Source: Patescibacteria group bacterium
Lineage (GTDB): Bacteria; Patescibacteriota; Minisyncoccia; Phycocordibacterales; Phycocordibacteraceae
Reading direction: 5' to 3'
NCBI GenBank assembly: GCA_040390125.1
Contig: JAZJYZ010000001.1
Location: forward strand, 307,026 to 371,025
Length of the DNA: 64,000 nucleotides
Positions 8,318 through 58,119 of the stretch are shown here, piece by piece. The notes beneath the pieces were generated by a model, which was not told the DNA's origin, searched no databases, and was given only the letters and a program-made list of their open reading frames with translations. The position numbers were made by a program, and so were the translations under genes. How positions within the stretch are numbered: the stretch's first letter is position 1; each line of letters opens with the position of its first letter.

Positions 8318-8353
8318 TCATTATTATTTAAAGTTTCTTCGCTAAAAACGCTT

Positions 8354-9147: not shown

Positions 9148-9187
9148 CTGTCCCTAAGCACCGCATGTACTCTATTTATATATAGAG

Positions 9188-9217
9188 AAATATCCGCAGT
9201 TTTCACTGCGGATATTT
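9188..9217. terminator. Bidirectional terminator hairpin (AAATATCCGCAGT-TTTC-ACTGCGGATATTT)
   Basis: A perfect 13-bp stem sits between the 3' end of the DUF1761 gene (plus strand) and the 3' end of rnpB (minus strand). Confidence 0.75.
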
Positions 9218-9227
9218 CATCTGTGAT

Positions 9228-9575: not shown

Positions 9576-9797
9576 CATTGTACAATATTTTTGCTATTAG
9601 TGCAATAAAAAATTGTTTTACTTAAAGATGGCAAGGCGATGCCTCGCCATTCAAGTGCCTTTTTGCTTTTTTAGATTCTTCTAATGGAGGAGTATAGGTT
9701 TTAATCCAAAATCTATAACTCATAACCTAAAAGCTATACGCTAGTTTATGGTACACTTTTCTCATACTTATTTATCATAAAGTTTATATTAGAACGT

Positions 9798-12128: not shown

Positions 12129-12152
12129 GTCTGGAAGGGAACGGGTTTATCT

Positions 12153-13799
12153 ATGGTGCGCACTGTCCTCGGGGTGATGACCCGGCCAATTCGAGGCCTT
12201 CATGAAGCAGCGTATGTGCTTGCGGGTTTTTCTATACTCTCGCAGGTATTGGCACTCGTGCGAGATCGGACGTTTGCACATCTTTTTGGTGCAGGCCCCA
12301 CCTTAGATGCATATTTTGCGGCATTCAGGATTCCGGATCTTCTGTTTGCTTTCTTAACGCTTTTTGTTTCGTCCTTTGCTTTGGTGCCGCTTCTCTCAGG
12401 AAAGGATAAAGATGCTCAAGGAGTCATTGTGGGGAATGTTCTGCTTGCGTTTGGTGTAAGTGCGATTGTGGTGTGTGGCATTCTTTTCTTTGCGATGCCT
12501 ACAATCGTACCGTTTCTTTTTCCGGGGTTTCCTCCGGAGACTCTTGCAAGTACGATACTTCTTTCCCGCATCATGCTGGTTCAGCCGGTGCTATTGGGTC
12601 TTTCCTCAATAGCCACATCTGTAGTGCAGGTCCTCAGACAGTTCATCATATTTGCGCTTGCCCCGATTCTTTACAACGTCGGTATTATTGCGGGGGCACT
12701 CTTCCTATATCCGCAGTTCGGCATTACAGGTCTTGCGTGGGGCGTGGCACTTGGTGCGCTTTTGCATGTGTCTGCACAAATTATCCCGATACTCGGGCAC
12801 GCCAGGCACATCGTGCGCCCCTCATGGAATTCACTCCGTGCGTCTATTGTTGAAGTTGCCCTGCCTTCGATGCCCCGTGCGCTTGCACTTTCATCTCAGC
12901 AGGTATTGCTGTTAGTGTTTGCTTCGATTGCATCATTAACCGCAGCGGGTACCGTTTCAACACTTGCTTTTGCGTTTAATTTGCAATCAGTCCCGCTTAC
13001 CATCATTGGTGTTTCTTATGCTGCTGCAATTTTCCCAGCACTCTCCGCATTAATAGCAAAAGGCAATACGGAGCTTTTTATGCGAGAGGTATGGGCAGGC
13101 GTTCGACATATCGTCTTTTGGACATTCCCCGCCATTACGCTCATCATTGTTCTCCGTGCGCATATCGTGCGCATTATTCTTGGCACTGGAGCATTTTCAT
13201 GGGATGACACGAGGCTCACCGCTGCTGTGCTTGCGTGTTTTGCGTTTTCTCTGATCGCACAATCAGTTATACTCATATTTTCTCGGAGTTACTACGCTGC
13301 ACACTCGACCCTTGTTCCTATTGTGGTAAACGTAGGAGGCGCTATTGTTGCAGGTGCGGGTGCCTATATCGCTGTGGTGTGGCTTGCTTCAGCAGAAATG
13401 CCACGATTTTTTATTGAAGATCTCTTTCGGGTAGCAGATGTGCCAGGAACTGCCATCCTCATGATTCCTATTGTCTATTCTCTTGTAATGCTTATGGTTG
13501 CGTGCACTTTCGGCTATCTCTTCGCACGTCGTTTTGGCTTCGAGGCACGGGTGTGGCATACACTCGGCACATCTTTTGCAGCATCAGTGATAGCAGCCAC
13601 GGGTGCATACGGAGTGTTGCAGTTTTCGGCTCCGCTATTGCCGACGACTACATTCTTCGGTATCTTCACTCAAGGACTGAGTGCTGGCATTGTTGGAGGT
13701 CTCTTGTGGCTTCTTGTCCTTTTCGTTCTCAAAAGTCAGGAACTAAAGGAGATACATGGAGCGCTACTCCATTTCTTCAAGAAAGGATTGAAAGCGTAA
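12153..13799 (+). CDS. murJ: Lipid II flippase MurJ (MviN)
   Basis: 548 aa with 14 TM helices. The N-terminus GFSILSQVLALVRDRTFAHLFGAGPTLDAYFAAFRIPDLLF is diagnostic of MurJ. Confidence 0.85.
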   Translation: MVRTVLGVMTRPIRGLHEAAYVLAGFSILSQVLALVRDRTFAHLFGAGPTLDAYFAAFRIPDLLFAFLTLFVSSFALVPLLSGKDKDAQGVIVGNVLLAFGVSAIVVCGILFFAMPTIVPFLFPGFPPETLASTILLSRIMLVQPVLLGLSSIATSVVQVLRQFIIFALAPILYNVGIIAGALFLYPQFGITGLAWGVALGALLHVSAQIIPILGHARHIVRPSWNSLRASIVEVALPSMPRALALSSQQVLLLVFASIASLTAAGTVSTLAFAFNLQSVPLTIIGVSYAAAIFPALSALIAKGNTELFMREVWAGVRHIVFWTFPAITLIIVLRAHIVRIILGTGAFSWDDTRLTAAVLACFAFSLIAQSVILIFSRSYYAAHSTLVPIVVNVGGAIVAGAGAYIAVVWLASAEMPRFFIEDLFRVADVPGTAILMIPIVYSLVMLMVACTFGYLFARRFGFEARVWHTLGTSFAASVIAATGAYGVLQFSAPLLPTTTFFGIFTQGLSAGIVGGLLWLLVLFVLKSQELKEIHGALLHFFKKGLKA

Positions 13800-13845
13800 T
13801 GTCTCACGTTTCTCGCACACACTCTATACTTCAGAGCATTGCTTT

Positions 13846-15735
13846 ATGAAAAACATTCGTAACTTTTCTATCATTGCACATATTGATCATGGTAAAAGCA
13901 CCTTAGCTGATCGCATGCTTGAGGTTACTAATACCGTGCCCCAACGCAAGATGCGTGAGCAGGTTTTGGACCAAATGGATTTGGAGCGAGAACGTGGCAT
14001 TACTATAAAAATGCAACCTGTGAGGATGGAGTACCATCCAGAGCGTAGAGGGCAGAGCGTAGAGGGTAGAGGGGATTCAGACCTCCCTGAAAGCTCAAAG
14101 CTCAAAGCTGAAAGCTCAGATTCAAAATATATTTTGAATCTGATCGACACTCCTGGACATATAGATTTTGCATACGAAGTATCTCGTGCCCTTACTGCCG
14201 TTGAGGGAGTGCTCTTGTTAGTGGATTCGACACAAGGTATTCAGGCGCAAACGTTGGCGACCCTCGCAATGGCACGGGATGCTGGGTGCGTCATCATTCC
14301 TGTGTTGTCGAAAATCGATATGCCGGCGTCCAGAGTGCCAGAAGTTCGCTCTGCCCTTGCACGTCTGCTTGATGTTGATGAGGAACAGGTATTGTCAGTA
14401 TCTGGAAAAACTGGAGAAGGAGTGTCTGAATTGCTCGCCGCTATTGTGGAGCGAATACCGCCTCCGTCTACTTCTTATCAGGCCACAGGTCAGGGCGGGC
14501 GGGCACTTGTATTTGATTTTTCATATTCGGAACATCGAGGGGTTGTAGCGTATGTGCGTGTGACTGATGGTGAAGTTAGGACTAAAGACACAATTTCTTT
14601 CATGGCAGTTGGAAAAAAGATGACTGCTCTTGAGACTGGGTGGTTAGTGCCGGCTGAGTTTCCGATTCCTGCGCTTTCTGCAGGGGATATAGGATATATA
14701 GTGACCGGCATAAAGGAGCCTGGAGTTGCGCTCGTTGGCGATACTATAAAAGCAGGAAACTCCACCTTGCCCGCCTTTGAGGGCTACAGTACCCCTAAGG
14801 CGGTGGTGTGGGCTTCTTTGTACCCTGACAGCCAAGATGGCTTTACGCTTCTAAAGCAGGCACTCTCCAGGCTTAAGCTCTCAGACGCTGCACTTTCATT
14901 TGAGGAGGATGGTTCTTCTATTCTTGGTAAAGGCTTTCGGTGCGGTTTCTTGGGAATGCTTCATATGGAAATCGTGACTGAGCGTCTGACTCGAGAATTT
15001 TCAATTACACCCGTCATCACTACGCCGTCCATTATGTATGAAGTGACAGATACAAAAGGGAAGACAGAACAAATATATACGCCAACACAATTTCCTCCAC
15101 ACGGAATGATCGCATCCGTTCGGGAGCAGTGGGTAAACATATCCATCATCACTCCTCCAACGTATCTCTCACCCATGACACAACTTTTGTATGAGTATGA
15201 GGCGACGATACATTCAGCTGACCTTTTTGGTTTGTCGGGGTATGGAGACGACAGGCTTCTTATTAAAGCTGAAATGCCACTTCGTGAATTGATGCGAGGA
15301 TTTTTCGACCGATTGAAAAGTGTGTCTTCAGGTTTTGCCTCACTCTCCTATGAGTTTGGCGACTTCCGTTCTGCCGATGTTGCAAGGCTCGATATTTTAG
15401 TGGCCGAAGAATTAGTGCCGGCGTTCTCACGTATTGTATCGACGCGTCGAGTTGAAGAGGAGGCACGAGCGTTTGTTGAAAAACTCTCAAACACCCTTCC
15501 ACGTCAGCAATTTGTTTTGAAAATACAAGCGCAAGCCGGAGGACGCATTATTGCCTCACGTTCACTTTCGGCGATACGTAAAGATGTGACGAGTGGTTTG
15601 TATGGAGGCGATGTTTCGAGAAAGAAAAAAGTGCTTGAAAAGCAGAAGAGAGGAAAAGAACGTCGAGGAGGACACGCCAAGGTGCAAATTCCCCCGGAGG
15701 TTTTTCTCAGGATGGTAAAACCGGACTCGAATTAG
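13846..15735 (+). CDS. lepA: Elongation factor 4 (LepA), carrying a repeat-derived in-frame insertion
   Basis: 629 aa. Contains IIAHIDHGKST, DTPGH and the C-terminal LepA domain. An extra ~30 aa (HPERRGQSVEGRGDSDLPESSKLKAESSDSK) lies between beta strands of the G domain. Confidence 0.92.
   Translation: MKNIRNFSIIAHIDHGKSTLADRMLEVTNTVPQRKMREQVLDQMDLERERGITIKMQPVRMEYHPERRGQSVEGRGDSDLPESSKLKAESSDSKYILNLIDTPGHIDFAYEVSRALTAVEGVLLLVDSTQGIQAQTLATLAMARDAGCVIIPVLSKIDMPASRVPEVRSALARLLDVDEEQVLSVSGKTGEGVSELLAAIVERIPPPSTSYQATGQGGRALVFDFSYSEHRGVVAYVRVTDGEVRTKDTISFMAVGKKMTALETGWLVPAEFPIPALSAGDIGYIVTGIKEPGVALVGDTIKAGNSTLPAFEGYSTPKAVVWASLYPDSQDGFTLLKQALSRLKLSDAALSFEEDGSSILGKGFRCGFLGMLHMEIVTERLTREFSITPVITTPSIMYEVTDTKGKTEQIYTPTQFPPHGMIASVREQWVNISIITPPTYLSPMTQLLYEYEATIHSADLFGLSGYGDDRLLIKAEMPLRELMRGFFDRLKSVSSGFASLSYEFGDFRSADVARLDILVAEELVPAFSRIVSTRRVEEEARAFVEKLSNTLPRQQFVLKIQAQAGGRIIASRSLSAIRKDVTSGLYGGDVSRKKKVLEKQKRGKERRGGHAKVQIPPEVFLRMVKPDSN
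14035..14127 (+). repeat. In-frame repeat insertion inside lepA (tandem agagcgtagaggg x2 plus gaaagctcaaagctcaaagctgaaagctca, followed by palindrome gattcaaaatat/atattttgaatc)
   Basis: The DNA in this segment is built of the same AGCT-rich motifs that populate intergenic regions. Its length is a multiple of 3 and it contains no stop codon. Confidence 0.6.
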
Positions 15736-16455: not shown

Positions 16456-17859
16456 ATGGCAGAAAGGCATAGACCAACACCGGAAGAAGCTACAGAGCCA
16501 GATCTTGATTTTTCTGTGTTTTTAGAAGAGATGACCGCTCATTTTAGTACCTTTGAGAGCAGGGCAGCCGAAGTTGTTGCATCTCCTGAAGGAGCACCCC
16601 GCCTCAAAGCTGTAGAAGTGACGGCGGGTGAAATAGGTGGGGCAATGGATAAAGTGCAAAGTGGTGCAGGACAAGCCGAGCTTGATTGGGTTCTTGATCC
16701 CGCGAACTTTGCGGAAGCATCAGAGATGCTTCCGGGAGATTATTATTATTTCTTCCCGCACGCAACTGATGTGGGTGATAATCGGAGGGTTCCATATGTG
16801 CGCACTCGTGGCGCCTCGTTTGGAGGGAACTCCCTTCCTCGCTCCGACGAGTGGGGTGAGAATGACCGCATTGTCGTCTTCGATAAAGAAAGAAGTCCTG
16901 CGCAGAGTTCTTCTAAGAAATCATTCCTCTCGGCCGAGCGTGTTCGTCGGATTAAAGATTTTTTCCTAAAAAGAAAAGCAAAAAATGCATCAAAAGTTGA
17001 ATTTAAAGGCATACCACTCTCGCGGAGGAGACTTTTGCAGTTTGTTGCCCTTGGAGCAGCAAGTGCCGTCTCTAGGGATACGCCAGTTTTTTCTGAAAAC
17101 GGCCATTTTGGAGTACCACTAGAAGAGAAGCCTCCTACAGATCCTCACGAGCGAGTTCTTTTTGAGGTAGCTCGGGCTGAACGCCTTCTAAAAGCATCAG
17201 ATCCCCTCGAGATGCTCAAGAGTCCCTATCTGGTAAGTGCACTGTATTACTCGGATGAGTTCATAGCAAAGATCAAAGCAGAGGGAGCTGAGAATTCAGG
17301 GCAGACCATCATAACTACTCTTGCCTCACAAATAACTCCTTTAGTTCGAATGCGTTTTATTACTGCATTGGAAAAGAAAGCAAAGGCATCAGGCCATTCT
17401 TTATACCAACCGATGGTTACACCACTTGATGTCGCTCATCTCGATTATGGGAAAGGGGAAAATCATCCCAATGCCTTAGATATATTTGCTTCTGAAGGAA
17501 CGAAGGTCCGCTCTGTGTACCCTGGCATCGTAATCCTTGCGGAAGATGGGTGGAATAGCAAAGATTCATTCTCCACAAGTTCTTTCAAGGGTGGCAATGC
17601 TGTCATCGTGTTTAGTCCCTACCAGAATAGCTTTCTCCGCTATTGTCATCTTGATACAGTATCTGCGCATGTAGGAAAATTTATAGACGCAGGAACCATT
17701 ATCGGTACTGTAGGTAATACCGGCGAAAATGCATCTCTTCCAGGGCATGGCAAACACCTACACTTAGAAGAAAATCTCGTCTTTTCTGTGCGAGGTGAAA
17801 TGCATCCAAGGGGTGGAAAAGGGCTCCGCATGGACTTTGATGCGATTGAGGGCAAGTAA
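16456..17859 (+). CDS. M23-family (LytM domain) metallopeptidase
   Basis: 467 aa. The C-terminal HPNALD ... YCHLD ... GNTGENASLPGHGKHLHLE matches the HxxxD and HxH zinc-binding motifs of M23 peptidases. Confidence 0.7.
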   Translation: MAERHRPTPEEATEPDLDFSVFLEEMTAHFSTFESRAAEVVASPEGAPRLKAVEVTAGEIGGAMDKVQSGAGQAELDWVLDPANFAEASEMLPGDYYYFFPHATDVGDNRRVPYVRTRGASFGGNSLPRSDEWGENDRIVVFDKERSPAQSSSKKSFLSAERVRRIKDFFLKRKAKNASKVEFKGIPLSRRRLLQFVALGAASAVSRDTPVFSENGHFGVPLEEKPPTDPHERVLFEVARAERLLKASDPLEMLKSPYLVSALYYSDEFIAKIKAEGAENSGQTIITTLASQITPLVRMRFITALEKKAKASGHSLYQPMVTPLDVAHLDYGKGENHPNALDIFASEGTKVRSVYPGIVILAEDGWNSKDSFSTSSFKGGNAVIVFSPYQNSFLRYCHLDTVSAHVGKFIDAGTIIGTVGNTGENASLPGHGKHLHLEENLVFSVRGEMHPRGGKGLRMDFDAIEGK

Positions 17860-20395: not shown

Positions 20396-22324
20396 ATGTG
20401 GAAAGCTAAATTTTTTGTTCCAGTAATTGCGGTTCTTTTGTTTGCTGGCACAGTTGCCCCGGCTCAGGCAGCTTCGCTCTCCGAAGATCAGATTCAGTCG
20501 ATTCTCGGTCTTTTGAGTTCGTTCGGTGCTGACACTTCGGTTATCGGTAATGTAAGTGCTTCACTTCGTGGCCAGGCGACGAGTGTGGCAAGTGCACCCG
20601 TTTCCTCATCGTCAGTGTGTTCGTACGTATCCGGACTTTCGCAAACCCTCTACGAGGGTATTTCTGACGGGGCGACTGGCGGTCAAGTTACGATGCTCCA
20701 AAAGTTTCTTGCCGCTGATTCATCAATATATCCCGAGGGTTCCATCACTGGTTATTTTGGTCCCGCAACCGAACGTGCCGTGCAGCGCTGGCAAGTGCAG
20801 AATGGTGTCGTCTCATCGGGAAGTCCGGAGACAAATGGCTACGGCGTTGTCGGATCAATGACACGTGCAGCATTTGCAAAGCGATGTGGAAATACGTCGT
20901 CGCCATCGTATACGACACCGATGCCAACCAAGCCACTTCCTACTACTCCGACGACGAATCCGAAGACGAACACATGGCCGAGCATTACGTTTAGCTACAT
21001 TTCTTCGGGTAACGTGATTGGGTCATACGCCAATCTTCCTGCAAATTCGCAGATACGACTCGTTAATAGTTCGACAGGTCAAGCGTATACAGCACAGAAC
21101 ACATTGGTATGGTCTGGAGGAAGCGGATCGCTCAGCATTCCTATTCCGAACGATTTGCCAAACGGCTCGTATTATTTGCGCGTAACTGATTACTACAGCC
21201 CTTCAACAACGATACTGGAGAGTAAGGCATTCCAAACTGGCTCGGATGTGCAGACACAATCCGTCACGATTAGTCAATTCAGTGCCTCACCAACGACGGT
21301 GAGTGCAGGACAAGCGATACTGTTCACGTGGAGCTCAAACTTGAGCCAAAATGATATCTCTGTCTATGGAGGCGGATGCAACATTGAAGGCGTTACCCAA
21401 AATAACGTTGCACTCAATGTCACTTCAGGATTTGTAGGTGCAAGCGGCTCAGTCACGTATGTCGCACCAGCGACGGCGAAGTACACGCTCCTGTGTTCTT
21501 CAGGTGGGAAAGATGGTTCGTCAAGTGCATCAGCACAGGCAACGGTCTATGTAGGACAGCAGCAAACAAACTCAGTAGTGATTAATTCGTTCACTGCTTC
21601 GCAAACGTCGGTGTCATCTGGTCAGCCCATTGTGCTCTCGTGGAGTTCAAACCTCACAGACAACGACATTTCGTATTACGGTGGCGGGTGTGACATCTCG
21701 GCTTTGACAAGCTCCAATCAACAAATCCACCTCACCTCAGGTTCTACCAGTGGTGCAAGCGGTTCCATTAGCTATACGCCAGCTCTTACAGCGACATACA
21801 CTCTGACCTGTAGTGCTGGCGCCAAAGACGGATCGCCGATGAATACTAAACAAGTGACGGTATACCTTGAATCGTCCATCCGTGGGGTGACTGCAGTGGG
21901 CGTCTATGAAGGGTCATACCCTTCAGGCGTTCAGCATTCATATAACTTTCACCCCGAAGGGACGGTGAATGTGAAAGTGACTGGCGATACTGGGCAGAGT
22001 CGTGACCTTGTCCTCACCTCGTACGAGCCGGTCAATTGGGTGCTCTCGGTCCCGAGCAATGTAATCATCAGCAAAATAATCGTGACAGGCTATCATAAAT
22101 CGCGAGTCACGAATGTTCCGTCCGGTACGCAGGTTGAATATCACTCATATGATACCGATGGACAGTATTACTATGCTTATCAGAGCTCGGGTGAATCGTT
22201 TAACCAGATCAAGCAGTGGCTTACTGGGCTCTATAGGGCATCTGACGGAGAACTGTATGGTAATTTCGTATTTCCAGGCTACAGTGCTTCCTCTGTAGAA
22301 GTATATGTCGGATATAAGGGCTAA
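20396..22324 (+). CDS. Secreted protein with a peptidoglycan-binding domain (PG_binding_1-like) and two tandem ~100-aa Ig-like repeats
   Basis: Signal peptide MWKAKFFVPVIAVLLFAGTVAPAQA. QVTMLQKFLAADSSIYPEGSITGYFGPATERAVQRWQ is a PG-binding motif. The repeats run QSVTISQFSASPTTVSAGQAILFTWSSNLSQNDISVYGGGC... and NSVVINSFTASQTSVSSGQPIVLSWSSNLTDNDISYYGGGC... Confidence 0.55.
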   Translation: MWKAKFFVPVIAVLLFAGTVAPAQAASLSEDQIQSILGLLSSFGADTSVIGNVSASLRGQATSVASAPVSSSSVCSYVSGLSQTLYEGISDGATGGQVTMLQKFLAADSSIYPEGSITGYFGPATERAVQRWQVQNGVVSSGSPETNGYGVVGSMTRAAFAKRCGNTSSPSYTTPMPTKPLPTTPTTNPKTNTWPSITFSYISSGNVIGSYANLPANSQIRLVNSSTGQAYTAQNTLVWSGGSGSLSIPIPNDLPNGSYYLRVTDYYSPSTTILESKAFQTGSDVQTQSVTISQFSASPTTVSAGQAILFTWSSNLSQNDISVYGGGCNIEGVTQNNVALNVTSGFVGASGSVTYVAPATAKYTLLCSSGGKDGSSSASAQATVYVGQQQTNSVVINSFTASQTSVSSGQPIVLSWSSNLTDNDISYYGGGCDISALTSSNQQIHLTSGSTSGASGSISYTPALTATYTLTCSAGAKDGSPMNTKQVTVYLESSIRGVTAVGVYEGSYPSGVQHSYNFHPEGTVNVKVTGDTGQSRDLVLTSYEPVNWVLSVPSNVIISKIIVTGYHKSRVTNVPSGTQVEYHSYDTDGQYYYAYQSSGESFNQIKQWLTGLYRASDGELYGNFVFPGYSASSVEVYVGYKG

Positions 22325-44358: not shown

Positions 44359-44973
44359 TTATTGTTGTAATGAAATGGTGCCGGGGAATAGGCCAATCTC
44401 GGATGGTGGAAAGAGTCGGACGAATGGGCGACCAACAATATCCTCACGTGGAAGATTGCCCCAGGAGCGAGAGTCAGAACTTTCGTTGCGGTTATCGCCC
44501 ATGACAAAGTATTCGTCGCTTCCTAGTGTGTAGACCTTGTATTCGTCTCGCATGCGGGATGGATCGATGAACGATTGGTCGAGCGTGATAGATTTTGCGT
44601 CTTTGCCACCACTAATAATAATGCGTTTACCCTGCATCTCTACTGTTTCGTTTGGTAAACCTATAATTCGTTTTATAAAAAATGTTTTTGGATCTTTTGG
44701 ATATCGCATTATGATGACATCGCCACGTTTTGGCTCTTCAAAACGGTAGGTTACTTGGTCAACGATGAGGTATTCGTTATTGTGGAATGTTGGCACCATT
44801 GAAGCACCTCGCACAATGAACGGTTGAGCAACGAACCAGCGGATAGGAACGACGATGAGGAGTGCGATGAGTGCGAATTTGATTGTGTCACTAACAAGTT
44901 CATTTCGCTCTTCATTCATGCAAAGAATTGTACGCCTGCGAGTCATTGCACGCAAGGTTTTTTTGTTGTGCAA
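44359..44973 (-). CDS. lepB: Signal peptidase I (S26 family)
   Basis: 204 aa. Contains GASMVPT (catalytic Ser), the catalytic Lys box RGDVIIM and GDNRNESSDSRSWG. Confidence 0.88.
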   Translation of the reverse strand: MHNKKTLRAMTRRRTILCMNEERNELVSDTIKFALIALLIVVPIRWFVAQPFIVRGASMVPTFHNNEYLIVDQVTYRFEEPKRGDVIIMRYPKDPKTFFIKRIIGLPNETVEMQGKRIIISGGKDAKSITLDQSFIDPSRMRDEYKVYTLGSDEYFVMGDNRNESSDSRSWGNLPREDIVGRPFVRLFPPSEIGLFPGTISLQQ

Positions 44974-52008: not shown

Positions 52009-52530
52009 GTGTTCTTAAATCCACGAGATATTCTTTCGCATCTTCCAATCACAGCACACTCAAAAGTGGGAGATTTTGGGGTGGGTGCAGGACACTATGC
52101 ATTTGCCTTGGCTGAAAAACTCGGGGCGGAAGGGAGCGTGTATGCATTTGATGTGTTTGGACCCGCCCTCGACACTATTCGCCGTGGAGGAGAGAAATAC
52201 CCTGCGGAGTTTCATACATTGCATTCTGATTTGAATGAACATATACCGCTTCGTGAAAATTTGTTGAATATAGCTGTTGTTGCAAACATACTTCATCAGA
52301 TTAATGAGCGTGAACGCTTTGTAGGAGAGGTGGCTCGGGTGCTACGCCCTGGGGGCACAGCGCTCGTCGTTGATTGGATGTCATCGTTCCGGAATATGGG
52401 GCCTGTGTCCGACTCGGTGCTGGCTCCCGGAGAAGCAGTACGATTGTTTAGACAGGCAGGTTTTGAAACTGGAGAGATGCTTCCTGCGGGAACACATCAT
52501 TTTGCATTTCTTGCCACTCTTGGCGACTAG
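52009..52530 (+). CDS. Class I SAM-dependent methyltransferase
   Basis: 173 aa. Motif I is VGDFGVGAGHYA and motif post-I/II is VYAFDV...LRPGGTALVVDW. Confidence 0.7.
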   Translation: MFLNPRDILSHLPITAHSKVGDFGVGAGHYAFALAEKLGAEGSVYAFDVFGPALDTIRRGGEKYPAEFHTLHSDLNEHIPLRENLLNIAVVANILHQINERERFVGEVARVLRPGGTALVVDWMSSFRNMGPVSDSVLAPGEAVRLFRQAGFETGEMLPAGTHHFAFLATLGD

Positions 52531-52587: not shown

Positions 52588-53880
52588 ATGAAACTCTTTC
52601 ATGTCATTGTGCTTGGTATTTTTCTTGCACTTGCCGTAGGTGCGGTAATTATTTTTGCTACATTTACTTCTCTTAATAAAAATAGTGTTGGCAGTGTTTC
52701 CATTTGGGGCTCTATACCACAAGCAACCTTCGACACATTGCTGGTGAGTATCAAAGAGGGGAATACTACATATGACGGCGTGTCGTATCGTTCAATTCCC
52801 GAGGGTGAGCTTATTCCCGCACTTGTTGAAGCGATCGCTGCGGGCCAGGGGCCTGACTTAGTAGTGTTCCCTGCGGAAAATCTTATATCTCAAAGTGACA
52901 AGCTCACCACTATCCCTTACAGCAATATCAGTCGTCGTGATTTTCAAAATACATTCATACAAGCAGGGGAGGTTTTTCTTGTTGAGAGCGGTTTAAAGGC
53001 GATCCCGTTTAGCGTTGATCCGCTCGTCATGTATTGGAACCGTACGTTGTTTGCAAATGCGGGTATTGCACAGCCACCAAGGTTTTGGGATGAGCTCTCC
53101 GACATGGCAACTCGCCTCACAAAAGCACAAGACAACGGTACGTTGACTCAAAATGCCGTTGCCTTGGGTACGTGGGACAACGTGGATCACGCAAAGGCCA
53201 TTTTTCTCACGCTTGCCTACCAGCTTGGAAACAGTGTTGTAGTAAGGAGTGGCCAAGGTTTGTATGTTTCAGTAATGAAAGACACTGCGGGCGGTAGTGG
53301 GGTACCTTCAGTTGATTCTGCACTTCGCTTCTACACAGATTTTGCGGACCCGGTAAAACCGATTTATTCATGGAATCGCTCACAGCCTGAATCACGTAGT
53401 GCGTTTTTGGGAGAGAAGCTAGGTGTATATTTTGGTTCCGCAAGCGAACTTGTAGGGATACGTGAAGCAAATCCGAATTTGAATTTTGATGTAGCACCTG
53501 TGCCGACTATTCGTGGAAATAATGGAGGAGTAGCGGCCGAACTTACCGGGCTTGCAATTCCTCGGGGAAGCAGGAATCCCGGAGGAGCACTGTTAATAGC
53601 AGAACTACTTACGAGCCCCGATTTGCAGGCATCTCTGCTCTCACTCATGTCTTTGCCATCGGTGCGACGTGATTCCGTTGGCACGTCTCCAAATGATCCT
53701 TACGGCACGATGTTTGAGAACGCAGCACTTCTTTCGTTTGCATTTCTTGATCCTGACCCAACAGCCACTGATTCAATTTTTAAACGTATGGTGGAGGGTG
53801 TTTCTTCGGGTAAACTGCAGGTGAGCGAGGCTACGGGTGGGGCTAACGATGAATTACAAGCACTTTTAGGGACACCTTAG
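52588..53880 (+). CDS. ABC transporter extracellular solute-binding protein (family 1, sugar-type)
   Basis: 430 aa with an N-terminal TM anchor and a periplasmic binding-protein-like fold. The AIPFSVDPLVMYWNRTLFANAGI motif is present. Confidence 0.65.
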   Translation: MKLFHVIVLGIFLALAVGAVIIFATFTSLNKNSVGSVSIWGSIPQATFDTLLVSIKEGNTTYDGVSYRSIPEGELIPALVEAIAAGQGPDLVVFPAENLISQSDKLTTIPYSNISRRDFQNTFIQAGEVFLVESGLKAIPFSVDPLVMYWNRTLFANAGIAQPPRFWDELSDMATRLTKAQDNGTLTQNAVALGTWDNVDHAKAIFLTLAYQLGNSVVVRSGQGLYVSVMKDTAGGSGVPSVDSALRFYTDFADPVKPIYSWNRSQPESRSAFLGEKLGVYFGSASELVGIREANPNLNFDVAPVPTIRGNNGGVAAELTGLAIPRGSRNPGGALLIAELLTSPDLQASLLSLMSLPSVRRDSVGTSPNDPYGTMFENAALLSFAFLDPDPTATDSIFKRMVEGVSSGKLQVSEATGGANDELQALLGTP

Positions 53881-53981: not shown

Positions 53982-54347
53982 ATGAAAAAAACATTTGCTC
54001 GAGTCATCCCGCTTGCATTGCCATTTTTTCTTCCGCTAGCGGTTTTTGCTGCAGGTTGTGAAGGAGGGACGGCAGGGGGTCTCTGTAATCCTCTTGGATA
54101 TGACTCGTTGTGGACTTTTTTGGAAAGGATACTTAAGTTGATAGTCGAAATAGGCTTTCCCGTCATTGTGCTGTACATCGTATTCATAGGTTTCAAATTC
54201 ATCACCGCTTCAGGAAAGCCCGAGGAACTTGCAAAAGTCAGGAGCCTCTTTTTCTGGGCGATTATTGGTGCTCTAGTAGTACTTGGTGCTCAAGCCCTTG
54301 CTTTGGCAATCCAGGCTACAGTTAATGATATTCAACAAGGAATCTAA
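53982..54347 (+). CDS. T4SS-pilin-like small membrane protein (TrbC/VirB2-like architecture), paralog 1
   Basis: 121 aa: signal peptide (ALPFFLPLAVFAAG) followed by two hydrophobic helices separated by a short polar loop (ASGKPEELAKVRS). Confidence 0.5.
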   Translation: MKKTFARVIPLALPFFLPLAVFAAGCEGGTAGGLCNPLGYDSLWTFLERILKLIVEIGFPVIVLYIVFIGFKFITASGKPEELAKVRSLFFWAIIGALVVLGAQALALAIQATVNDIQQGI

Positions 54348-54365
54348 TTTCCTCGGTATGCAGGT

Positions 54366-54815
54366 ATGACACTCACTTCAATTATCAATACGATGACCGA
54401 GGTTGTGTTGTTAGCAGTTCCGTGGGGGTTTTTATTCTTGCTGTTCTATTGGAATATTTACAAGCTTATTACCGAGTCAGACAATGCAGAAAAACGAAAG
54501 CAGGCCGTTCCTCGTCTTGTGTGGAGCATCGTTGCACTTGCGGTAGTCTTTTCTATAGGAGGAATTGTTAATATTCTCAGCAATACGCTTCTTGGTTCAA
54601 ACAATTCAACGTTTGCACCCACAGATTCCACTCCCGTCACTCCTTTCACTCCTCGCACCTCGCCCGAAGATGGACCGAAAACTGAAACTCCAGCAACTCC
54701 TTCTGGTTCTTCTGTGAGCCCTGGCACTTCGCCTTTCAACCCGGATATCAACGACCCTGGTTTTGAAAGAGTTCCTCCAACATCAAGTGACCCTAATCCA
54801 ATACAGAATATTTAA
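54366..54815 (+). CDS. T4SS-pilin-like small membrane protein, paralog 2 (with Pro/Thr/Ser-rich C-terminal tail)
   Basis: 149 aa. Two hydrophobic helices flank ESDNAEKRKQAVPR. The tail is TPVTPFTPRTSPEDGPKTETPATPSGSS. Confidence 0.5.
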   Translation: MTLTSIINTMTEVVLLAVPWGFLFLLFYWNIYKLITESDNAEKRKQAVPRLVWSIVALAVVFSIGGIVNILSNTLLGSNNSTFAPTDSTPVTPFTPRTSPEDGPKTETPATPSGSSVSPGTSPFNPDINDPGFERVPPTSSDPNPIQNI

Positions 54816-54831
54816 AAAATTATTTGAATAT

Positions 54832-55185
54832 ATGAAAAAAATAATACGTATAAGTTTTATGAGCGCAGTCACATTAATGCCACTTTCGGCATTTGCAGCT
54901 GCTACCACCATCCAGGATGTCTTGCGCAATCTTGCAGACCCTATCCGCATGGCAACGATTACCGTTGTCTCGCTCGCACTCCTCGCATTCTTTTGGGGTT
55001 TGGCGATGTATGTTTTTGGCTCTTCAAACGATGAGAAGCGAAAAAAAGGCATCCCCATAATGATTTGGGGTATTGTGGCAATTTTTGTCATGCTTTCCAT
55101 AGCTGGCATTGTAAATATGCTCCAAGCAACTTTTGAAGTGGGTCCGGGCAATCTCCAAATCCCAACCATACGCAAAGCACAGTAG
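54832..55185 (+). CDS. T4SS-pilin-like small membrane protein, paralog 3
   Basis: Signal peptide MKKIIRISFMSAVTLMPLSAFAAA, then LALLAFFWGLAMYVFGSSNDEKRKKGIPIMIWGIVAIFVMLSIAGIV. Start set at the MKK just after the upstream stop codon. Confidence 0.55.
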   Translation: MKKIIRISFMSAVTLMPLSAFAAATTIQDVLRNLADPIRMATITVVSLALLAFFWGLAMYVFGSSNDEKRKKGIPIMIWGIVAIFVMLSIAGIVNMLQATFEVGPGNLQIPTIRKAQ

Positions 55186-55303
55186 TCTGGCTTAATCCAC
55201 ACACGCTTCGTATAGTGCCCCTTGAAACAAGGGAAATGGTACAATGAGCGGGCAATTATTATTCAACCTATTTATCCCTTAGCTTTAAAAGGCTTTTAAT
55301 TAT

Positions 55304-55672
55304 ATGAAAGGATTTTTAAAAACAAGTATTGCGACTGTAGTAGCGTTCGCTCCTCTTGCGGTGTTTGCTGCTGATGCTCAAAATGCCCTGTCAAAGATTG
55401 GTGCCCTCATAACACAAGCAACGCCAATCGTTGTAGCGCTCGCACTGCTCGCATTCTTCTGGGGCTTGGTTACTTACATCTTTGGCTCTTCAAATGATGA
55501 TAAGCGAAAGAAGGGTATTCACATTATGATTTGGGGTATCATCGCTCTTTTCGTGATGCTTTCAGTGTTCGGTATCATTAGAGCTCTTCAAAGCACTTTG
55601 GAACTCGATACGAGCGGAAGTATTAATATTCCTAAGGTTAATACTTCCGGAGGCGGTAGTGTCTCACAGTAA
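55304..55672 (+). CDS. T4SS-pilin-like small membrane protein, paralog 4
   Basis: 122 aa. Signal peptide, then LALLAFFWGLVTYIFGSSNDDKRKKGIHIMIWGIIALFVMLSVFGII, which is ~75% identical to paralog 3 across the core. Confidence 0.55.
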   Translation: MKGFLKTSIATVVAFAPLAVFAADAQNALSKIGALITQATPIVVALALLAFFWGLVTYIFGSSNDDKRKKGIHIMIWGIIALFVMLSVFGIIRALQSTLELDTSGSINIPKVNTSGGGSVSQ

Positions 55673-55775
55673 AAGTTCTTAGATTGTTCTGTAGTGACAA
55701 AACATCAGCGACAAAACTAACGTCGCTGATGTTTTGTCCGACTTTTCTCTCAAGGTATTGAAAGTAGAATAAGTT

Positions 55776-56033
55776 ATGGATGTTCTTTCTAACTTCATAG
55801 GTAAGATTGTCGAGCTCATACTCACGCCCATAATGGCGCTCCTTTTTGCCTTGGCGATGTTTTACTTCATCAACGGCTTGATTACATTCATCGCACAGGC
55901 AGACAATGCGGCAGAGAGAGCAAAAGGGACGAGGCACCTTTTCTGGGGGCTCATTGGTTTCTTTATAATGGTGTGTGTGATTGGAATTCTTACCGCTGTA
56001 ACTGGAACCTTCGGGGTGAGTTTACCGAAATGA
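55776..56033 (+). CDS. T4SS-pilin-like small membrane protein, paralog 5 (no signal peptide)
   Basis: 85 aa. Two hydrophobic helices flank QADNAAERAKGTRH. Followed by a terminator. Confidence 0.5.
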   Translation: MDVLSNFIGKIVELILTPIMALLFALAMFYFINGLITFIAQADNAAERAKGTRHLFWGLIGFFIMVCVIGILTAVTGTFGVSLPK

Positions 56034-56047
56034 GTTAACGAGAGAAA

Positions 56048-56073
56048 CAAAAACCCCGATTGATCGGGGTTTT
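56048..56073 (+). terminator. Rho-independent terminator (AAAAACCCCGAT-TGAT-CGGGGTTTTT)
   Basis: A GC stem with flanking A and T runs, immediately after the last gene of the pilin array. Confidence 0.8.
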
Positions 56074-56089
56074 TGTATTTGAAGTGTCT

Positions 56090-56313
56090 GCACTGAGTGA
56101 GTCATCGAATCGAAGTCTGGGCGAAGAAGGACTTGGTCACGAGTTACTAAGCATTTTGCTCCGTGTTTACTCCAAGTGAGTCTTTGGATTAAGTGCCCTT
56201 CGACTACTCTCACCCTTCGATTAAACTCAGGGTTTCGCTTCGCTCAGGGTACTTCGTCTCTCTTGCTCACATTTGCCCAGTGTTTACACTGAGCGAGCTT
56301 GCGAGTCGAAGTG
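56090..56313 (-). mobile_element. tRNA-Leu(TAG)-associated element. It holds a direct copy of the tRNA 3' end (tgggcgaagaaggacttgg, 56118-56136), the shared cgtgaccaa block, and two copies of the cactgagcgag...cgaagtg motif (56090-56117 and 56289-56313)
   Basis: In the tRNA orientation the layout is tRNA 3' end, then cacttcgactcgcaagctcgctcagtg, then a ~170-bp spacer, then cgtgacca, then agtccttcttcgccca, then gacttcgattcgatgactcactcagtg. This is the same architecture as the Ser, Lys and Val loci. Confidence 0.4.
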
Positions 56314-56395
56314 TGGGCGGAAGAGGACTTGAACCTCCACCCCTTGCGGGACTAGCTCCTAAGGCTAGCGCGTCTGCCAATTTCGCCATCCGCCC
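56314..56395 (-). tRNA. tRNA-Leu (anticodon TAG), class II
   Basis: Read on the reverse complement: acceptor GGGCGGA/TCCGCCC, anticodon stem CTAGC/GCTAG with loop CTTAGGA, long variable arm, T-arm GGAGG-TTCAAGT-CCTCT. Confidence 0.85.
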
Positions 56396-56553
56396 AATCC
56401 TCGAACAGTATCATTAGACGCAGTTCTATTCAAAGATTTACGCTTTTAAAATGTTCTTATTTCTGTTAGAGTTTCCGAATCCGCCCGTAAGCATAGCTTT
56501 CGGGCGCTTCATTCGAAGATAATGAAAATTAATTTTCATTATCCTTCTCATTC

Positions 56554-56626
56554 GCGCCCGTAGCTCAGTTGGTAGAGCGACTCCCTCTTAAGGAGACGGT
56601 CGTAGGTTCGAGCCCTACCGGGCGCA
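56554..56626 (+). tRNA. tRNA-Lys (anticodon CTT), no encoded CCA
   Basis: Acceptor GCGCCCG/CGGGCGC. D-arm GCTC-AGTTGGTA-GAGC. Anticodon stem ACTCC/GGAGA with loop CTCTTAA. T-arm GTAGG-TTCGAGC-CCTAC. Confidence 0.9.
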
Positions 56627-56628
56627 CA

Positions 56629-56814
56629 ATATAAAAACAGCACACAGGTGCTGTTTTTATATTGTGCGCCCGAGCAAGCGAATAGTTTCGCTTGCGTGTG
56701 GGACTCGAAAAGTGGAGTGTTACTTTCTGTTTCAGAAAGTCACGAGCTGGGGTCGAGGAAATTTACGAACGTAGGTGAGAAAATTATCCGTGACCGAGCC
56801 CTACCGGGCGCACA
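56629..56814 (+). mobile_element. tRNA-Lys-associated miniature element (166 bp), bounded by an exact 20-nt direct repeat of the tRNA 3' end (cgagccctaccgggcgcaca at 56609-56628 and 56795-56814)
   Basis: It contains a terminator hairpin (56634-56658). It contains an inverted T-arm copy (gggactcgaa). It contains the blocks ggggtcgagga and aaaattatccgtgaccga, which are shared with the tRNA-Val element. Confidence 0.45.
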
Positions 56815-56817
56815 TAT

Positions 56818-57375
56818 TTAAAACTCATACACATAGAGTTTATGTGGGTGTTTGCCAGTTCCCACAATTACCATCTCTATAGGTTCTTTTGTTTTGAAAG
56901 GGAAGTCGCACGAAACAACACGAGTTCCTTTTTTCAATTCCGCTTCGAACTTTGGTAACAGCTTCTGTACGACGTCAGGAAAGAGATACATGTAGATATG
57001 TGTCGCATTGTGGAGTGGCACACGTGAGAAATTTCTAAATAGAGTTTTTACGTTTTTGAGAGGTTTAAACCAGAAACGAATTTGGGTGAAGGTGTAGGGT
57101 AGTGGTGCTTTCTCAACGCCTGTCGCAAAAGCATCTGGGTACGCTGTGCCCATTGTTGCAATGACACGCCCATCTCCAGAGCCAAGATCATAGAATTGAT
57201 CGCCCGCTTTCATGGGGAGTAACCGTTTTACCTCATCAACTACATACTGAGGTATTGGTACGTACGGGACTCTCGTTGTTACGATTCCGTAGCTCATGAA
57301 GACTAAGAAGATGAAACAAATGAACCATATAAGAGTGAGCACTGCGTAGAGTGTCAGAATGAGAAACATAGTCAT
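56818..57375 (-). CDS. Class I SAM-dependent methyltransferase with N-terminal TM helix
   Basis: 185 aa. Contains YDLGSGDGRV (motif I) and an acidic motif II candidate. Confidence 0.55.
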   Translation of the reverse strand: MTMFLILTLYAVLTLIWFICFIFLVFMSYGIVTTRVPYVPIPQYVVDEVKRLLPMKAGDQFYDLGSGDGRVIATMGTAYPDAFATGVEKAPLPYTFTQIRFWFKPLKNVKTLFRNFSRVPLHNATHIYMYLFPDVVQKLLPKFEAELKKGTRVVSCDFPFKTKEPIEMVIVGTGKHPHKLYVYEF

Positions 57376-57409
57376 ATATGCGAGGTAGTATAGCTTATCT
57401 TTTTCTTAG

Positions 57410-57491
57410 TGCCCGGGGTGAGACTCGAACTCACACTCCTTACGGAACTCGATCTTAAGTCGAGCGCGGCTACCGATTACGCCACCCGGGC
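57410..57491 (-). tRNA. tRNA-Leu (anticodon TAA), class II
   Basis: Read on the reverse complement: acceptor GCCCGGG/CCCGGGC, anticodon stem CTCGA/TCGAG with loop CTTAAGA, long variable arm, T-arm GTGAG-TTCGAGT-CTCAC. Confidence 0.85.
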
Positions 57492-57959
57492 AGGTTTCTT
57501 ATTTTTACCACGATGAGTTGGTTTCAAGCTATGGCAGTTGGGGCAAAGCACTCTGAGGTTACTAAGTCTATTGTCCCTACTGTCTCCATTGATATGGTCC
57601 AACTCAAGAGGAATTCTACCGTCATCAGAGGTTTTTGCCCATCCGCATTCTTCACAACACTTTTCTTTTAAATTTGCTTTATAGAGTCTTCTTTTAAGTT
57701 TAAAGCTTTGAAAATCGACATTTTTTCTTAGGAGTTCTTTAAGTGGTCGTTCGTTGGTATGTGGTCGCTTAATACCTTTTAACCACCCTTTCCCCGTGAA
57801 ATGTTGTGTAGATATTTTTAGGTCTCTAATTCGTTTCTGTATTTGGACGTAGTTGCCACCTGCTGGAATTAGACTTAGACATTTCAAAACAGCTCGAATG
57901 CTTCGCGATTCACGTACCGCTTGTTTTAATTGGGCGTCATTCCAAGATTTTCTTCGCAT
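57477..57959 (-). CDS. Free-standing HNH endonuclease (homing-endonuclease-like)
   Basis: 160 aa. LELDHINGDSRDNRLSNLRVLCPNCH is the HNH motif with a CxxC...CxxC zinc finger. Its 3' end overlaps the first 15 nt of tRNA-Leu(TAA). Confidence 0.7.
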   Translation of the reverse strand: MRRKSWNDAQLKQAVRESRSIRAVLKCLSLIPAGGNYVQIQKRIRDLKISTQHFTGKGWLKGIKRPHTNERPLKELLRKNVDFQSFKLKRRLYKANLKEKCCEECGWAKTSDDGRIPLELDHINGDSRDNRLSNLRVLCPNCHSLKPTHRGKNKKPARVA

Positions 57960-58046
57960 TATTGTATAAAAGTATCATATTAAGGTAGACGCTCCATTAC
58001 TTATAAACACAAAATCATCTATAAAACCAAAGAAAATTATAACTGG

Positions 58047-58119
58047 AGGCCACGGCGGGAATCGAACCCGCGCAATATCGGTTTTGCAAACCGCTGCGTT
58101 TCCACTTCGCCACGTGGCC
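58047..58119 (-). tRNA. tRNA-Cys (anticodon GCA); CCA appears encoded (58044-58046)
   Basis: Read on the reverse complement: acceptor GGCCACG/CGTGGCC, anticodon loop TTGCAAA, T-arm GCGGG-TTCGATT-CCCGC, discriminator U followed by CCA. Confidence 0.85.

What the first reader, a model, noticed from the sequence alone, without database searches (positions are those of the whole stretch)
53982..56033. Tandem array of five paralogous T4SS-pilin-like (TrbC/VirB2-architecture) genes
Five consecutive small genes (85-149 aa) share a layout: signal peptide, hydrophobic helix, short charged loop (GSSNDEKRKKG in paralogs 3 and 4; the other paralogs carry their own short charged loops), hydrophobic helix. 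Paralogs 3 and 4 are ~75% identical, and one paralog has a Pro/Thr-rich tail. This matches the conjugative/T4SS pilin family that is expanded in CPR genomes, where it is thought to mediate host-cell attachment or DNA uptake. No VirB4, VirB6 or VirD4 gene is in the window, so the array may supply variable pilins to a distant apparatus. An ABC sugar-binding protein gene lies upstream and a tRNA cluster with element insertions lies downstream.
Basis: partly seen in the sequence, partly recalled or inferred. Interest (0 to 1): 0.55.

Follow-up and report, generated by a model that had tools for sequence, protein, structure and literature searches.

The report
Conserved VirB2-like pilin gene array
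Five neighbouring small membrane-protein genes in this ultra-small (Patescibacteria) bacterium all belong to the type IV secretion "pilin" family; such arrays are already described for this phylum, and this one is an ordinary, stably inherited example whose only fresh feature is its tight linkage to a sugar-binding-protein gene.

Summary
Five same-strand genes at 53982-56033 (121, 149, 117, 122 and 85 aa) each have two hydrophobic helices joined by a short positively charged loop. All five score above Pfam's cut-off for PF18895 T4SS_pilin, and gene 1 also passes PF04956 TrbC/VirB2.

The genes are real. Same-position orthologues exist in at least 79 species of class Paceibacteria, and dN/dS is about 0.1-0.2.

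VirB2-like arrays of 2-11 genes in Patescibacteria are already published. NCBI already names gene 1 'TrbC/VirB2 family protein'. This is therefore a new member of a known kind.

- **Position in the genome:** the array is not a variable cassette. It sits in a conserved chromosomal operon: gyrA, a small SAM methyltransferase, a membrane-anchored sugar-type solute-binding protein, 4-7 pilin-like genes, then a terminator.
- **Order within the array:** a TrbC-like gene comes first and an 85-aa gene last in about 90% of arrays. Only the middle genes vary in number.
- **Solute-binding protein link:** its gene lay directly upstream in 68 of 68 loci that could be assessed.
- **Secretion machinery:** no VirB4, VirB6 or VirD4 lies in the window or within 10 kb of the array in related genomes. 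Published tables list VirB4 elsewhere in the two closest relatives.

Pilus formation is inferred, not shown.

The parts
52009..52530 (+). Small class-I SAM-dependent methyltransferase (173 aa). It lies upstream in the same gene string and is a possible operon member.
   Evidence: It hits Pfam Methyltransf_11/25 and only generic NCBIfam methyltransferase models. It is present between gyrA and the SBP gene in 53 of 68 related loci. In several loci it overlaps the SBP start by 4 nt.
52588..53880 (+). Membrane-anchored extracellular solute-binding protein (430 aa, sugar/oligosaccharide type). It is the constant upstream partner of the array.
   Evidence: It hits PF01547 SBP_bac_1 at 2.7e-22. Its nearest solved relative is 4r9f MBP1 at 1e-14. 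It lies immediately upstream of the first pilin gene in 68 of 68 related loci, with a median gap of about 17 nt. NCBI names it 'extracellular solute-binding protein', MES2135010.1. No ABC permease or ATPase is adjacent.
53982..54347 (+). g1: TrbC/VirB2-like pilin paralogue (121 aa). It has a signal peptide (..VFA|AGC), a Cys..Cys-NPL motif and two helices.
   Evidence: It scores 45.3 bits on PF18895 (cut-off 26.6) and 28.8 bits on PF04956 (cut-off 27.9). The AF2 model has pLDDT 76.7 with helices 3-23, 43-75 and 80-118. NCBI names it 'TrbC/VirB2 family protein'. This gene type is first in 63-65 of 68 arrays.
54366..54815 (+). g2: pilin-like paralogue (149 aa). It has no signal peptide and carries a 76-residue Pro/Thr/Ser-rich C-terminal tail.
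   Evidence: It scores 31.4 bits on PF18895. The tail is 51% P/T/S. Orthologues are 101-179 aa with tails of variable length, and one orthologue has a signal peptide.
54832..55185 (+). g3: pilin-like paralogue (117 aa). It has a signal peptide (..AFA|AA), the loop GSSNDEKRKKG and a C-terminal IQIPTI motif.
   Evidence: It scores 32.3 bits on PF18895. Orthologues are 71-74% identical. The ATG start is supported by the orthologues.
55304..55672 (+). g4: pilin-like paralogue (122 aa) and a recent duplicate of g3. It has a signal peptide (..VFA|AD), the loop GSSNDDKRKKG and a C-terminal INIPKV motif.
   Evidence: It scores 30.9 bits on PF18895. The AF2 model has pLDDT 71.5 with helices 4-20, 25-60 and 65-98. 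It is 52.6% identical to g3 overall and 75% over the core.
55696..55738 (+). Perfect 17-bp hairpin between g4 and g5. It may be an internal attenuator or an RNA-stability element.
   Evidence: The region folds with MFE -34.2 kcal/mol and z = -4.8. It is not conserved in L002 or L003.
55776..56033 (+). g5: minimal pilin-like paralogue (85 aa) with no signal peptide.
   Evidence: It scores 32.8 bits on PF18895 and 36.4 bits on NCBIfam NF045849, a pilin-like conjugal transfer protein model (cut-off 40). This gene type is last in 62 of 68 arrays.
56047..56076 (+). GC-rich hairpin with a U-run: the intrinsic terminator that closes the operon.
   Evidence: It folds with z = -4.3. A strong hairpin at the same position but with a different sequence follows the last pilin gene in L002, L003 and L009, with z from -3.9 to -8.5.

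Best explanation
The five genes encode VirB2/TrbC-type ('T4SS pilin') subunits of a Paceibacteria (Patescibacteria) bacterium.

**Proposed mechanism**
1. Each protein inserts into the cytoplasmic membrane as a helical hairpin. The N- and C-termini face outwards and the Lys/Arg-rich loop faces the cytoplasm.
2. In g1, g3 and g4 a signal peptide is removed after the ..FA motif. g2 and g5 insert without a leader.
3. A monoderm-type T4SS encoded elsewhere in the genome then uses the membrane pool. In this class the virB4 locus usually lies near dnaA. The subunits either polymerise into a short pilus or conduit, or line its channel towards the host cell.
4. The five paralogues are fixed, non-interchangeable parts, not antigenic variants. 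These parts are a TrbC-like first subunit, a minimal last subunit, and middle subunits with exposed tails.
5. They are co-transcribed with a membrane-anchored sugar-type solute-binding protein. That protein probably acts at the same cell surface, in host-glycan recognition or nutrient capture.

**Shown:** family membership, two-helix architecture, paralogy, positional orthology, purifying selection, operon context and the absence of T4SS machinery nearby.

**Inferred:** membrane topology, leader cleavage, use by a distant T4SS, filament formation and any role for the SBP.
For: - **Family:** all five score above the PF18895 gathering cut-off, and g1 also passes PF04956 TrbC over nearly the whole model. 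There are sub-threshold hits to the NCBIfam pilin-like conjugal-transfer family NF045849.
- **Paralogy:** the g1 family and the g3/g4 family are homologous by hhalign (96.5% probability, E 8e-10).
- **Architecture:** AF2 gives helical hairpins. The loops carry net charge +1 or +2.
- **Leader removal:** orthologues of the leaderless g2 and g5 carry leaders, and the predicted cleavage leaves a mature N-terminus matching Met1 of the leaderless forms.
- **Orthology and selection:** positional orthology is shown and dN/dS of 0.08-0.18.
- **Conservation of the operon:** the same locus is found in 79 species, with the SBP upstream in 68 of 68 and fixed first and last gene types. The terminator position is also conserved.
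- **Literature:** 441 VirB2 arrays of 2-11 genes are reported in Patescibacteria, with mean identity 25% and maximum 54% (PMC12102498). The pilin array is essential in Ca. Southlakia (PMC10633639; PMC12857230). T4SS pilins are among the most highly expressed secreted proteins in Paceibacteria co-cultures (PMC10936435).
- **Machinery in relatives:** VirB4 is listed as present in the closest array-bearing relatives, GCA_004322365.1 and Greene0714_7.
Against: - No VirB4, VirB6 or VirD4 is in the 64-kb window or within 10 kb of the array in 79 related species. I could not check the rest of the source genome.
- Three of seven array-bearing assemblies in the published table are listed as VirB4-negative. 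Two of these are clearly incomplete, at 384 and 444 kb.
- There is no sequence-level link to any pilin of solved structure.
- Foldseek returns only generic helical hairpins, all with E > 1.
- Related two-helix proteins exist in monoderm conjugation systems that make no pilus.
- No pilus built from these proteins has been seen in any Patescibacterium (PMC12857230).
Confidence: 0.6

Rival explanations
1. The proteins are pilin-like in ancestry but work as a membrane-resident module together with the co-transcribed solute-binding protein. They could form an anchoring or oligomeric platform, or an unconventional uptake device. This module would act independently of a VirB4 machine and would not polymerise into a pilus.
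For: The SBP gene is immediately upstream in 68 of 68 loci, often within a few nt or overlapping. No ABC permease or ATPase partner lies nearby. No T4SS gene is near the array in any of the 79 species. Some array-bearing assemblies are listed as VirB4-negative. The SBP is strongly conserved, at 49-77% identity with an almost constant length.
Against: gyrA is equally syntenic (67 of 68), so conserved order alone does not prove a functional link. SBPs of this family normally feed ABC permeases, which may be encoded elsewhere. In Saccharimonadia the homologous arrays sit inside the T4SS cluster and are essential together with it. The VirB4-negative assemblies are mostly incomplete.
Confidence: 0.22
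2. The array is a diversifying set of interchangeable pilin variants, used for host-range or antigenic variation and supplied to a distant apparatus.
For: Intra-array identity is low, at 15-28% for g1 against the others. Gene number varies from 4 to 7 between species, and the middle genes are the variable ones. The g2 tail varies in length and sequence. The literature suggests this reading by analogy with Bartonella and Anaplasma.
Against: Every paralogue has a same-position orthologue that is much closer than any paralogue. dN/dS is 0.08-0.18. Divergence equals that of the neighbouring SBP gene. The first and last gene types are fixed in about 90% of arrays. No repeats, recombination scars or mobile-element genes lie inside the array.
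Confidence: 0.1
3. The genes encode unrelated small membrane proteins, such as holin-like or stress proteins, and the pilin HMM hits come from hydrophobic composition alone.
For: The hits are modest, at 31-45 bits, and the proteins are short and hydrophobic. Fold search cannot discriminate between helical hairpins.
Against: All five exceed the curated threshold, while the best competing Pfam hit scores 15.4 bits or less. g1 aligns to nearly the full TrbC model. Precomputed PF18895 and PF04956 annotations recur on dozens of orthologues. IMG independently names one orthologue 'VirB2 component (pilin)'.
Confidence: 0.05

Closest known systems
VirB2-like pilin arrays of Patescibacteria (Quinonero-Coronel et al. 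2025, PMC12102498; the essential array in the T4SS cluster SEML1_0006-0019 of Ca. Southlakia epibionticum, Wang et al. 2023, PMC10633639)
   Same: Both are tandem sets of small PF18895/PF04956 proteins. Both show low intra-array identity: the published mean is 25% with a maximum of 54%, and here the range is 15-53%. Both are chromosomal, lie outside any mobile element and have no relaxase nearby.
   Different: This array is in class Paceibacteria and is detached from the virB4 locus. It sits in a fixed gyrA-methyltransferase-SBP-array operon. I did not find that context described in the papers I read. Essentiality has not been tested.
TrbC/VirB2 conjugative pilins of diderm T4SS (PF04956; Agrobacterium VirB2, RP4 TrbC)
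   Same: Both have a signal peptide, two hydrophobic helices and a short basic loop. g1 passes the family threshold.
   Different: g2-g5 do not pass PF04956. There is no adjacent virB operon. The envelope is monoderm. There is no evidence for cyclisation, lipid binding or filament formation. No similarity to solved pilins is detectable.
Pilin-like two-helix proteins of monoderm conjugation systems (NCBIfam NF045849 Mbov_0395 family; NF045890 pLS20_p028 family)
   Same: They share the small two-transmembrane hairpin architecture, and there are sub-threshold HMM matches (g5 scores 36.4 against a cut-off of 40).
   Different: All matches are below the curated cut-offs. Those proteins are single-copy genes inside conjugative elements, whereas these form a five-gene chromosomal array with no conjugation genes.
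Amplified virB2 paralogues in Bartonella and Anaplasma T4SS loci
   Same: Both have multiple tandem VirB2 paralogues.
   Different: Those are thought to serve antigenic or host variation. Here the paralogues are ancient, positionally fixed and under purifying selection.

Membership tests
Pfam PF18895 T4SS_pilin | HMM score at or above the gathering cut-off of 26.6 bits | tested here: met
   The five proteins g1-g5 score 45.3, 31.4, 32.3, 30.9 and 32.8 bits.
Pfam PF18895 T4SS_pilin | Small protein with two hydrophobic helices joined by a short charged loop, with an optional N-terminal leader | tested here: met
   Hydrophobic segments and loop charges are given, the AF2 helices, and the alignment.
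Pfam PF04956 TrbC/VirB2 | HMM score at or above the gathering cut-off of 27.9 bits | tested here: inconclusive
   g1 passes narrowly at 28.8 bits over model positions 10-97 of 98. g2-g5 give no hit.
TrbC/VirB2 pilins as T4SS components | Encoded with, or in a genome that has, VirB4 and other T4SS machinery | not testable with these tools
   The machinery is absent from the window and from the 10 kb on each side of the array in 79 species. Published Table S1 lists VirB4 in 4 of 7 array-bearing relatives, including the two closest.
TrbC/VirB2 pilins as T4SS components | Polymerises into an extracellular, lipid-associated filament | not testable with these tools
   Foldseek returns only generic hairpins, and no sequence link to solved pilins exists.
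Patescibacterial VirB2 arrays (PMC12102498) | Two or more PF04956/PF18895 genes in tandem, or separated by one non-pilin gene | tested here: met
   Five consecutive genes are present.
Patescibacterial VirB2 arrays (PMC12102498) | High divergence within the array (published mean 25%, maximum 54%) | tested here: met
   g1 is 16-28% identical to the others. The closest pair, g3 and g4, is 52.6% identical.
SBP-dependent ABC importer | The SBP gene is accompanied by permease (BPD_transp_1) and ATPase genes | tested here: not met
   None is present in the operon or in the scanned window ORFs, nor in the annotated relatives' loci. The rest of the genome was not examined.

The most novel reading that the evidence does not exclude
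The membrane-anchored SBP-fold protein and the VirB2-like array may form one dedicated surface module that is conserved across class Paceibacteria and genetically uncoupled from virB4. For example, the SBP could act as a glycan-recognising receptor or tip partner of a pilin-based conduit used to attach to, or draw nutrients from, the host. That would be a previously undescribed partnership between a solute-binding protein and T4SS pilins.
Probability: 0.18. Interest if true: 0.6.

Novelty: new member of a known kind. Interest (0 to 1): 0.3.

Why it matters
The T4SS and its pilin arrays are among the few systems shown to be essential for the epibiotic life of Patescibacteria, and what they do is unknown. 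This locus does not change that picture.

It does add one usable fact. In Paceibacteria the array is a fixed-order, vertically inherited operon welded to a conserved sugar-type binding protein rather than to virB4. This argues for a heteromeric structure built from specialised subunits rather than antigenic variation. It also names a concrete candidate partner, the SBP, to test in the Paceibacteria-methanogen co-cultures that now exist.

Tried and rejected
- **Fold search:** Foldseek of the g1 model against the PDB gave no match with E < 1e-3, only generic helical hairpins such as ATP synthase subunit c and T3SS needle proteins. It is uninformative for this fold.
- **Sequence links to solved pilins:** profile searches of the g1 and g3/g4 families against PDB sequences returned only noise, such as GPCR helices and FliL.
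- **Plasmid pilins:** tblastn of g1 against 72,556 plasmids found nothing meaningful.
- **VirB4 near the array:** I scanned the large ORFs around the array in 79 species. Those with Pfam hits were IF-2, aminotransferase, a class I aminoacyl-tRNA synthetase (Pfam tRNA-synt_1), PrkA and FAD oxidase. Five ORFs of about 500-700 aa had no Pfam hit.
- **Reaching the rest of the source genome:** the exact-protein look-up returned only a 4.5-kb Logan contig.
- **Read-through fusion of g1 and g2:** they share a frame and are separated by TAA plus 18 nt. I rejected this because the frame relation is not kept in orthologues.
- **Lipoprotein processing of g1 (..AAGC):** I rejected this because the lipobox is not conserved among orthologues.
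- **The g4-g5 hairpin as a conserved regulator:** I rejected this because it is absent in L002 and L003.
- **SBP link outside the syntenic locus:** the SBP search listed only close orthologues, so it could not test this.
Full report
**What is there**

The interval 53982-56033 holds five consecutive + strand genes.

| Gene | Coordinates | Length | Leader |
|---|---|---|---|
| g1 | 53982-54347 | 121 aa | yes |
| g2 | 54366-54815 | 149 aa | no |
| g3 | 54832-55185 | 117 aa | yes |
| g4 | 55304-55672 | 122 aa | yes |
| g5 | 55776-56033 | 85 aa | no |

For g3 the mechanical ORF list extends to a TTG at 54763 and overlaps g2. Orthologues all begin MKKII.. at the ATG.

Each product has two long hydrophobic segments separated by a 10-15 residue loop of net charge +1 or +2. 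g1, g3 and g4 also have a classic leader: a basic N-terminus, a hydrophobic core, then ..VFA|A or ..AFA|A. g2 and g5 begin directly at helix 1. g2 carries a 76-residue tail that is 51% Pro/Thr/Ser.

- A signal peptide is present in only three of the five proteins.
- The loop differs by one residue between g3 (..NDEKRKKG) and g4 (..NDDKRKKG).
- g3 and g4 are 52.6% identical overall. They are 75% identical only over the 56-residue core.

**Family**

All five proteins score above the curated threshold of Pfam PF18895 T4SS_pilin, at 45.3, 31.4, 32.3, 30.9 and 32.8 bits against a cut-off of 26.6. g1 also passes PF04956 TrbC/VirB2 (28.8 against 27.9) across nearly the whole model. The best competing Pfam hit is only 15.4 bits.

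NCBIfam gives only sub-threshold hits to a pilin-like conjugal-transfer family, NF045849. The best is g5 at 36.4 bits against a cut-off of 40.

The g1 family and the g3/g4 family are homologous by profile-profile comparison (96.5% probability, E 8e-10).

AlphaFold2 models built with family alignments give a leader helix plus a two-helix hairpin. The g1 model has pLDDT 76.7 and the g4 model 71.5.

The fold is too simple to discriminate. Foldseek against the PDB gave nothing below E = 1. Profile searches against PDB sequences and tblastn against plasmids found no pilin. The link to experimentally characterised pilins therefore rests on the Pfam models alone.

**Source and context**

The proteins are in NCBI as MES2135011.1 ('MAG: TrbC/VirB2 family protein', g1) and MES2135010.1 (the SBP). 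They come from a 748,944-bp contig of a 'Patescibacteria group bacterium'. The other four genes are named 'hypothetical'.

The window is ordinary chromosome. It carries GyrA, LepA, MurJ, a class I aminoacyl-tRNA synthetase (Pfam tRNA-synt_1), TsaD, FtsZ, FtsA, IF-2, signal peptidase I, Pth and eleven tRNAs.

Every ORF of 379 aa or more, and all but a handful of the shorter ORFs of 150 aa or more, was scanned against Pfam. None is VirB4, VirD4 or VirB6. My pilin HMM finds no sixth copy in the window.

**Comparative evidence**

Exact-protein look-ups and a scan of one genome per species found the same locus in 79 species. These are labelled Parcubacteria, Paceibacterota, Kaiser-, Zambryski-, Campbell- and Wolfebacteria.

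I surveyed these loci with HMMs built here. Among the 68 loci with at least 1.5 kb upstream:
- All 68 have the SBP orthologue directly before the first pilin gene. The median gap is about 17 nt, and several show 4-nt overlaps.
- 67 have gyrA upstream.
- 53 have the small SAM methyltransferase in between.
- Arrays hold 4-7 pilin-like ORFs.

Each window paralogue is closest to the gene in the same slot of its relatives. Identity is 58-78% in L002, L003 and L009, and 47-53% for g1, g3 and g5 in L004 and L006. Identity between paralogues is only 23-53%.

Across the 68 arrays the g1 type is first in 63-65 and the g5 type is last in 62. The middle genes vary in number and type.

dN/dS against two relatives is 0.08-0.18. 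dS is near saturation, so these are rough values. Protein divergence of the pilins (71-78%) matches that of the SBP (71-72%), while GyrA is 98% identical.

A strong hairpin with a U-run follows the last pilin gene in the window. A hairpin with a different sequence sits at the same place in L002, L003 and L009. This marks the end of the transcription unit.

Leaders come and go among orthologues. L009 has one on its g2 orthologue and L002 has one on its g5 orthologue. The predicted cleavage leaves the same mature N-terminus as the leaderless forms.

**Machinery**

No T4SS ATPase or channel gene lies within 10 kb of the array in any related locus.

Table S1 of Quinonero-Coronel et al. 2025 lists VirB4 as present in four array-bearing assemblies. 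These are GCA_004322365.1 (my L003/L015) and Greene0714_7 (L014), which are the closest relatives in the genome scan, plus Athens0714_16 and a Campbellbacteria MAG.

The same table lists VirB4 as absent from three assemblies of 384, 444 and 643 kb. That paper also reports that in Paceibacteria virB4 usually lies near dnaA/dnaN.

A distant apparatus is therefore plausible, but I could not verify it for this genome.

**What is already known**

The same paper reports VirB2-like pilins (PF04956 and PF18895) in 1,948 VirB4-positive Patescibacteria assemblies. It also reports 441 arrays of 2-11 pilin genes, with mean identity 25% and maximum 54%.

In Ca. Southlakia epibionticum a series of predicted pilins inside the T4SS cluster is essential. 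A 2025 review calls these the only VirB2-like pilins in monoderm systems and speculates that they form a pilus.

In Paceibacteria-methanogen enrichments, T4SS pilins, including two adjacent genes, are among the five most highly expressed secreted proteins of unknown function.

The kind of feature is therefore known, and the present array fits it.

**Mechanism**

The best-supported reading is as follows.
1. The five proteins insert as N-out/C-out hairpins with the basic loop inside.
2. The leaders of g1, g3 and g4 are removed by signal peptidase I.
3. A VirB4-type machine encoded elsewhere uses the membrane pool to build a pilus-like conduit or channel lining at the host contact site.

Fixed order, deep positional orthology and purifying selection argue for specialised, non-redundant subunits rather than interchangeable variants. 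The candidates are a conserved TrbC-like subunit, a minimal subunit, and middle subunits with exposed tails.

Every step after 'family member with hairpin architecture' is inference.

The main rival is that the array works with the co-transcribed SBP as a membrane module independent of VirB4. The invariant linkage and the lack of adjacent ABC partners keep this alive. It is weakened because gyrA is equally syntenic and because homologous arrays sit inside T4SS clusters elsewhere.

**Verdict**

The pilin-family interpretation is supported, but the 'variable pilins' gloss is not. This is a new member of a known kind.

The SBP-array operon conserved across Paceibacteria is a modest addition. I did not find it in the papers I read.

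Noticed in passing
window 55117-55185 and 55600-55672; also L002-L092 array genes: After helix 2, many g3/g4-type proteins carry a short conserved C-terminal motif, [IVLT]-x-[IVLTP]-P-x-[IVLC] (window: IQIPTI and INIPKV). It occurs in 59 of 128 g4-type and 10 of 34 g3-type ORFs, and almost never in the g1, g2 or g5 types. A 68-70 aa single-helix, non-pilin protein occupying slot 4 in L004 and L006 ends with a similar motif (VPEVPRV). It may be a processing or docking signal.
   Followed up: partly
window 55696-55738: A perfect 17-bp hairpin with a 9-nt loop lies between g4 and g5 (z = -4.8). It is absent from the same spacer in L002 and L003.
   Followed up: partly
window 56313-58119: A tRNA cluster (Leu-tag, Lys-ctt, Leu-taa, Cys-gca) is interspersed with two genes. 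One is a membrane-anchored DOT1-like gene resembling a protein-lysine methyltransferase (56818-57375, - strand; NF041081 at 64 bits, below its cut-off). The other is an HNH endonuclease gene (57477-57959, - strand) whose 3' end overlaps tRNA-Leu(taa) by 15 nt. Both genes are also present in relative L002.
   Followed up: partly
window 52009-52530: A small generic SAM methyltransferase lies between gyrA and the SBP gene in 53 of 68 related loci. It sometimes overlaps the SBP start by 4 nt, so it may belong to the same operon. Its substrate is unknown.
   Followed up: partly
window 44359-44973 (- strand): A signal peptidase I gene (Peptidase_S26) lies 9 kb upstream and is syntenic with the array in relatives. 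It is probably the housekeeping LepB. It is noted only because the RP4 pilin-maturing TraF is a member of this family (from my own knowledge).
   Followed up: no
window 53982-54815: g1 and g2 are in the same reading frame, separated only by a TAA stop and 18 nt. The frame relation is not kept in L002, so it is probably coincidence.
   Followed up: yes
window 5250-6389: A 379-aa protein matches the Pfam 'fungal' glucuronyl esterase family PF22244 (GCE_fung) at E 3.5e-30. This is an unexpected carbohydrate esterase for a reduced genome.
   Followed up: no
window 16456-17859 and 20396-22324: A 467-aa M23 peptidase and a 642-aa protein with a peptidoglycan-binding domain were found. Similar PG-binding secreted proteins are reported as highly expressed in Paceibacteria parasitising methanogens (PMC10936435). 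M23 domains occur in some Patescibacteria VirB1-like proteins.
   Followed up: no
window 7958-14000: The + strand shows a strongly negative AT skew of about -0.22 over 8-14 kb. This coincides with a run of membrane-protein genes: three small membrane proteins at 7958-9147, a 776-aa polytopic protein with C-terminal TPR repeats, and MurJ.
   Followed up: partly
window 2378-2953: This 191-aa ORF overlaps tRNA-Ser(gga) at 2481-2566 on the same strand. It is probably not a gene.
   Followed up: no
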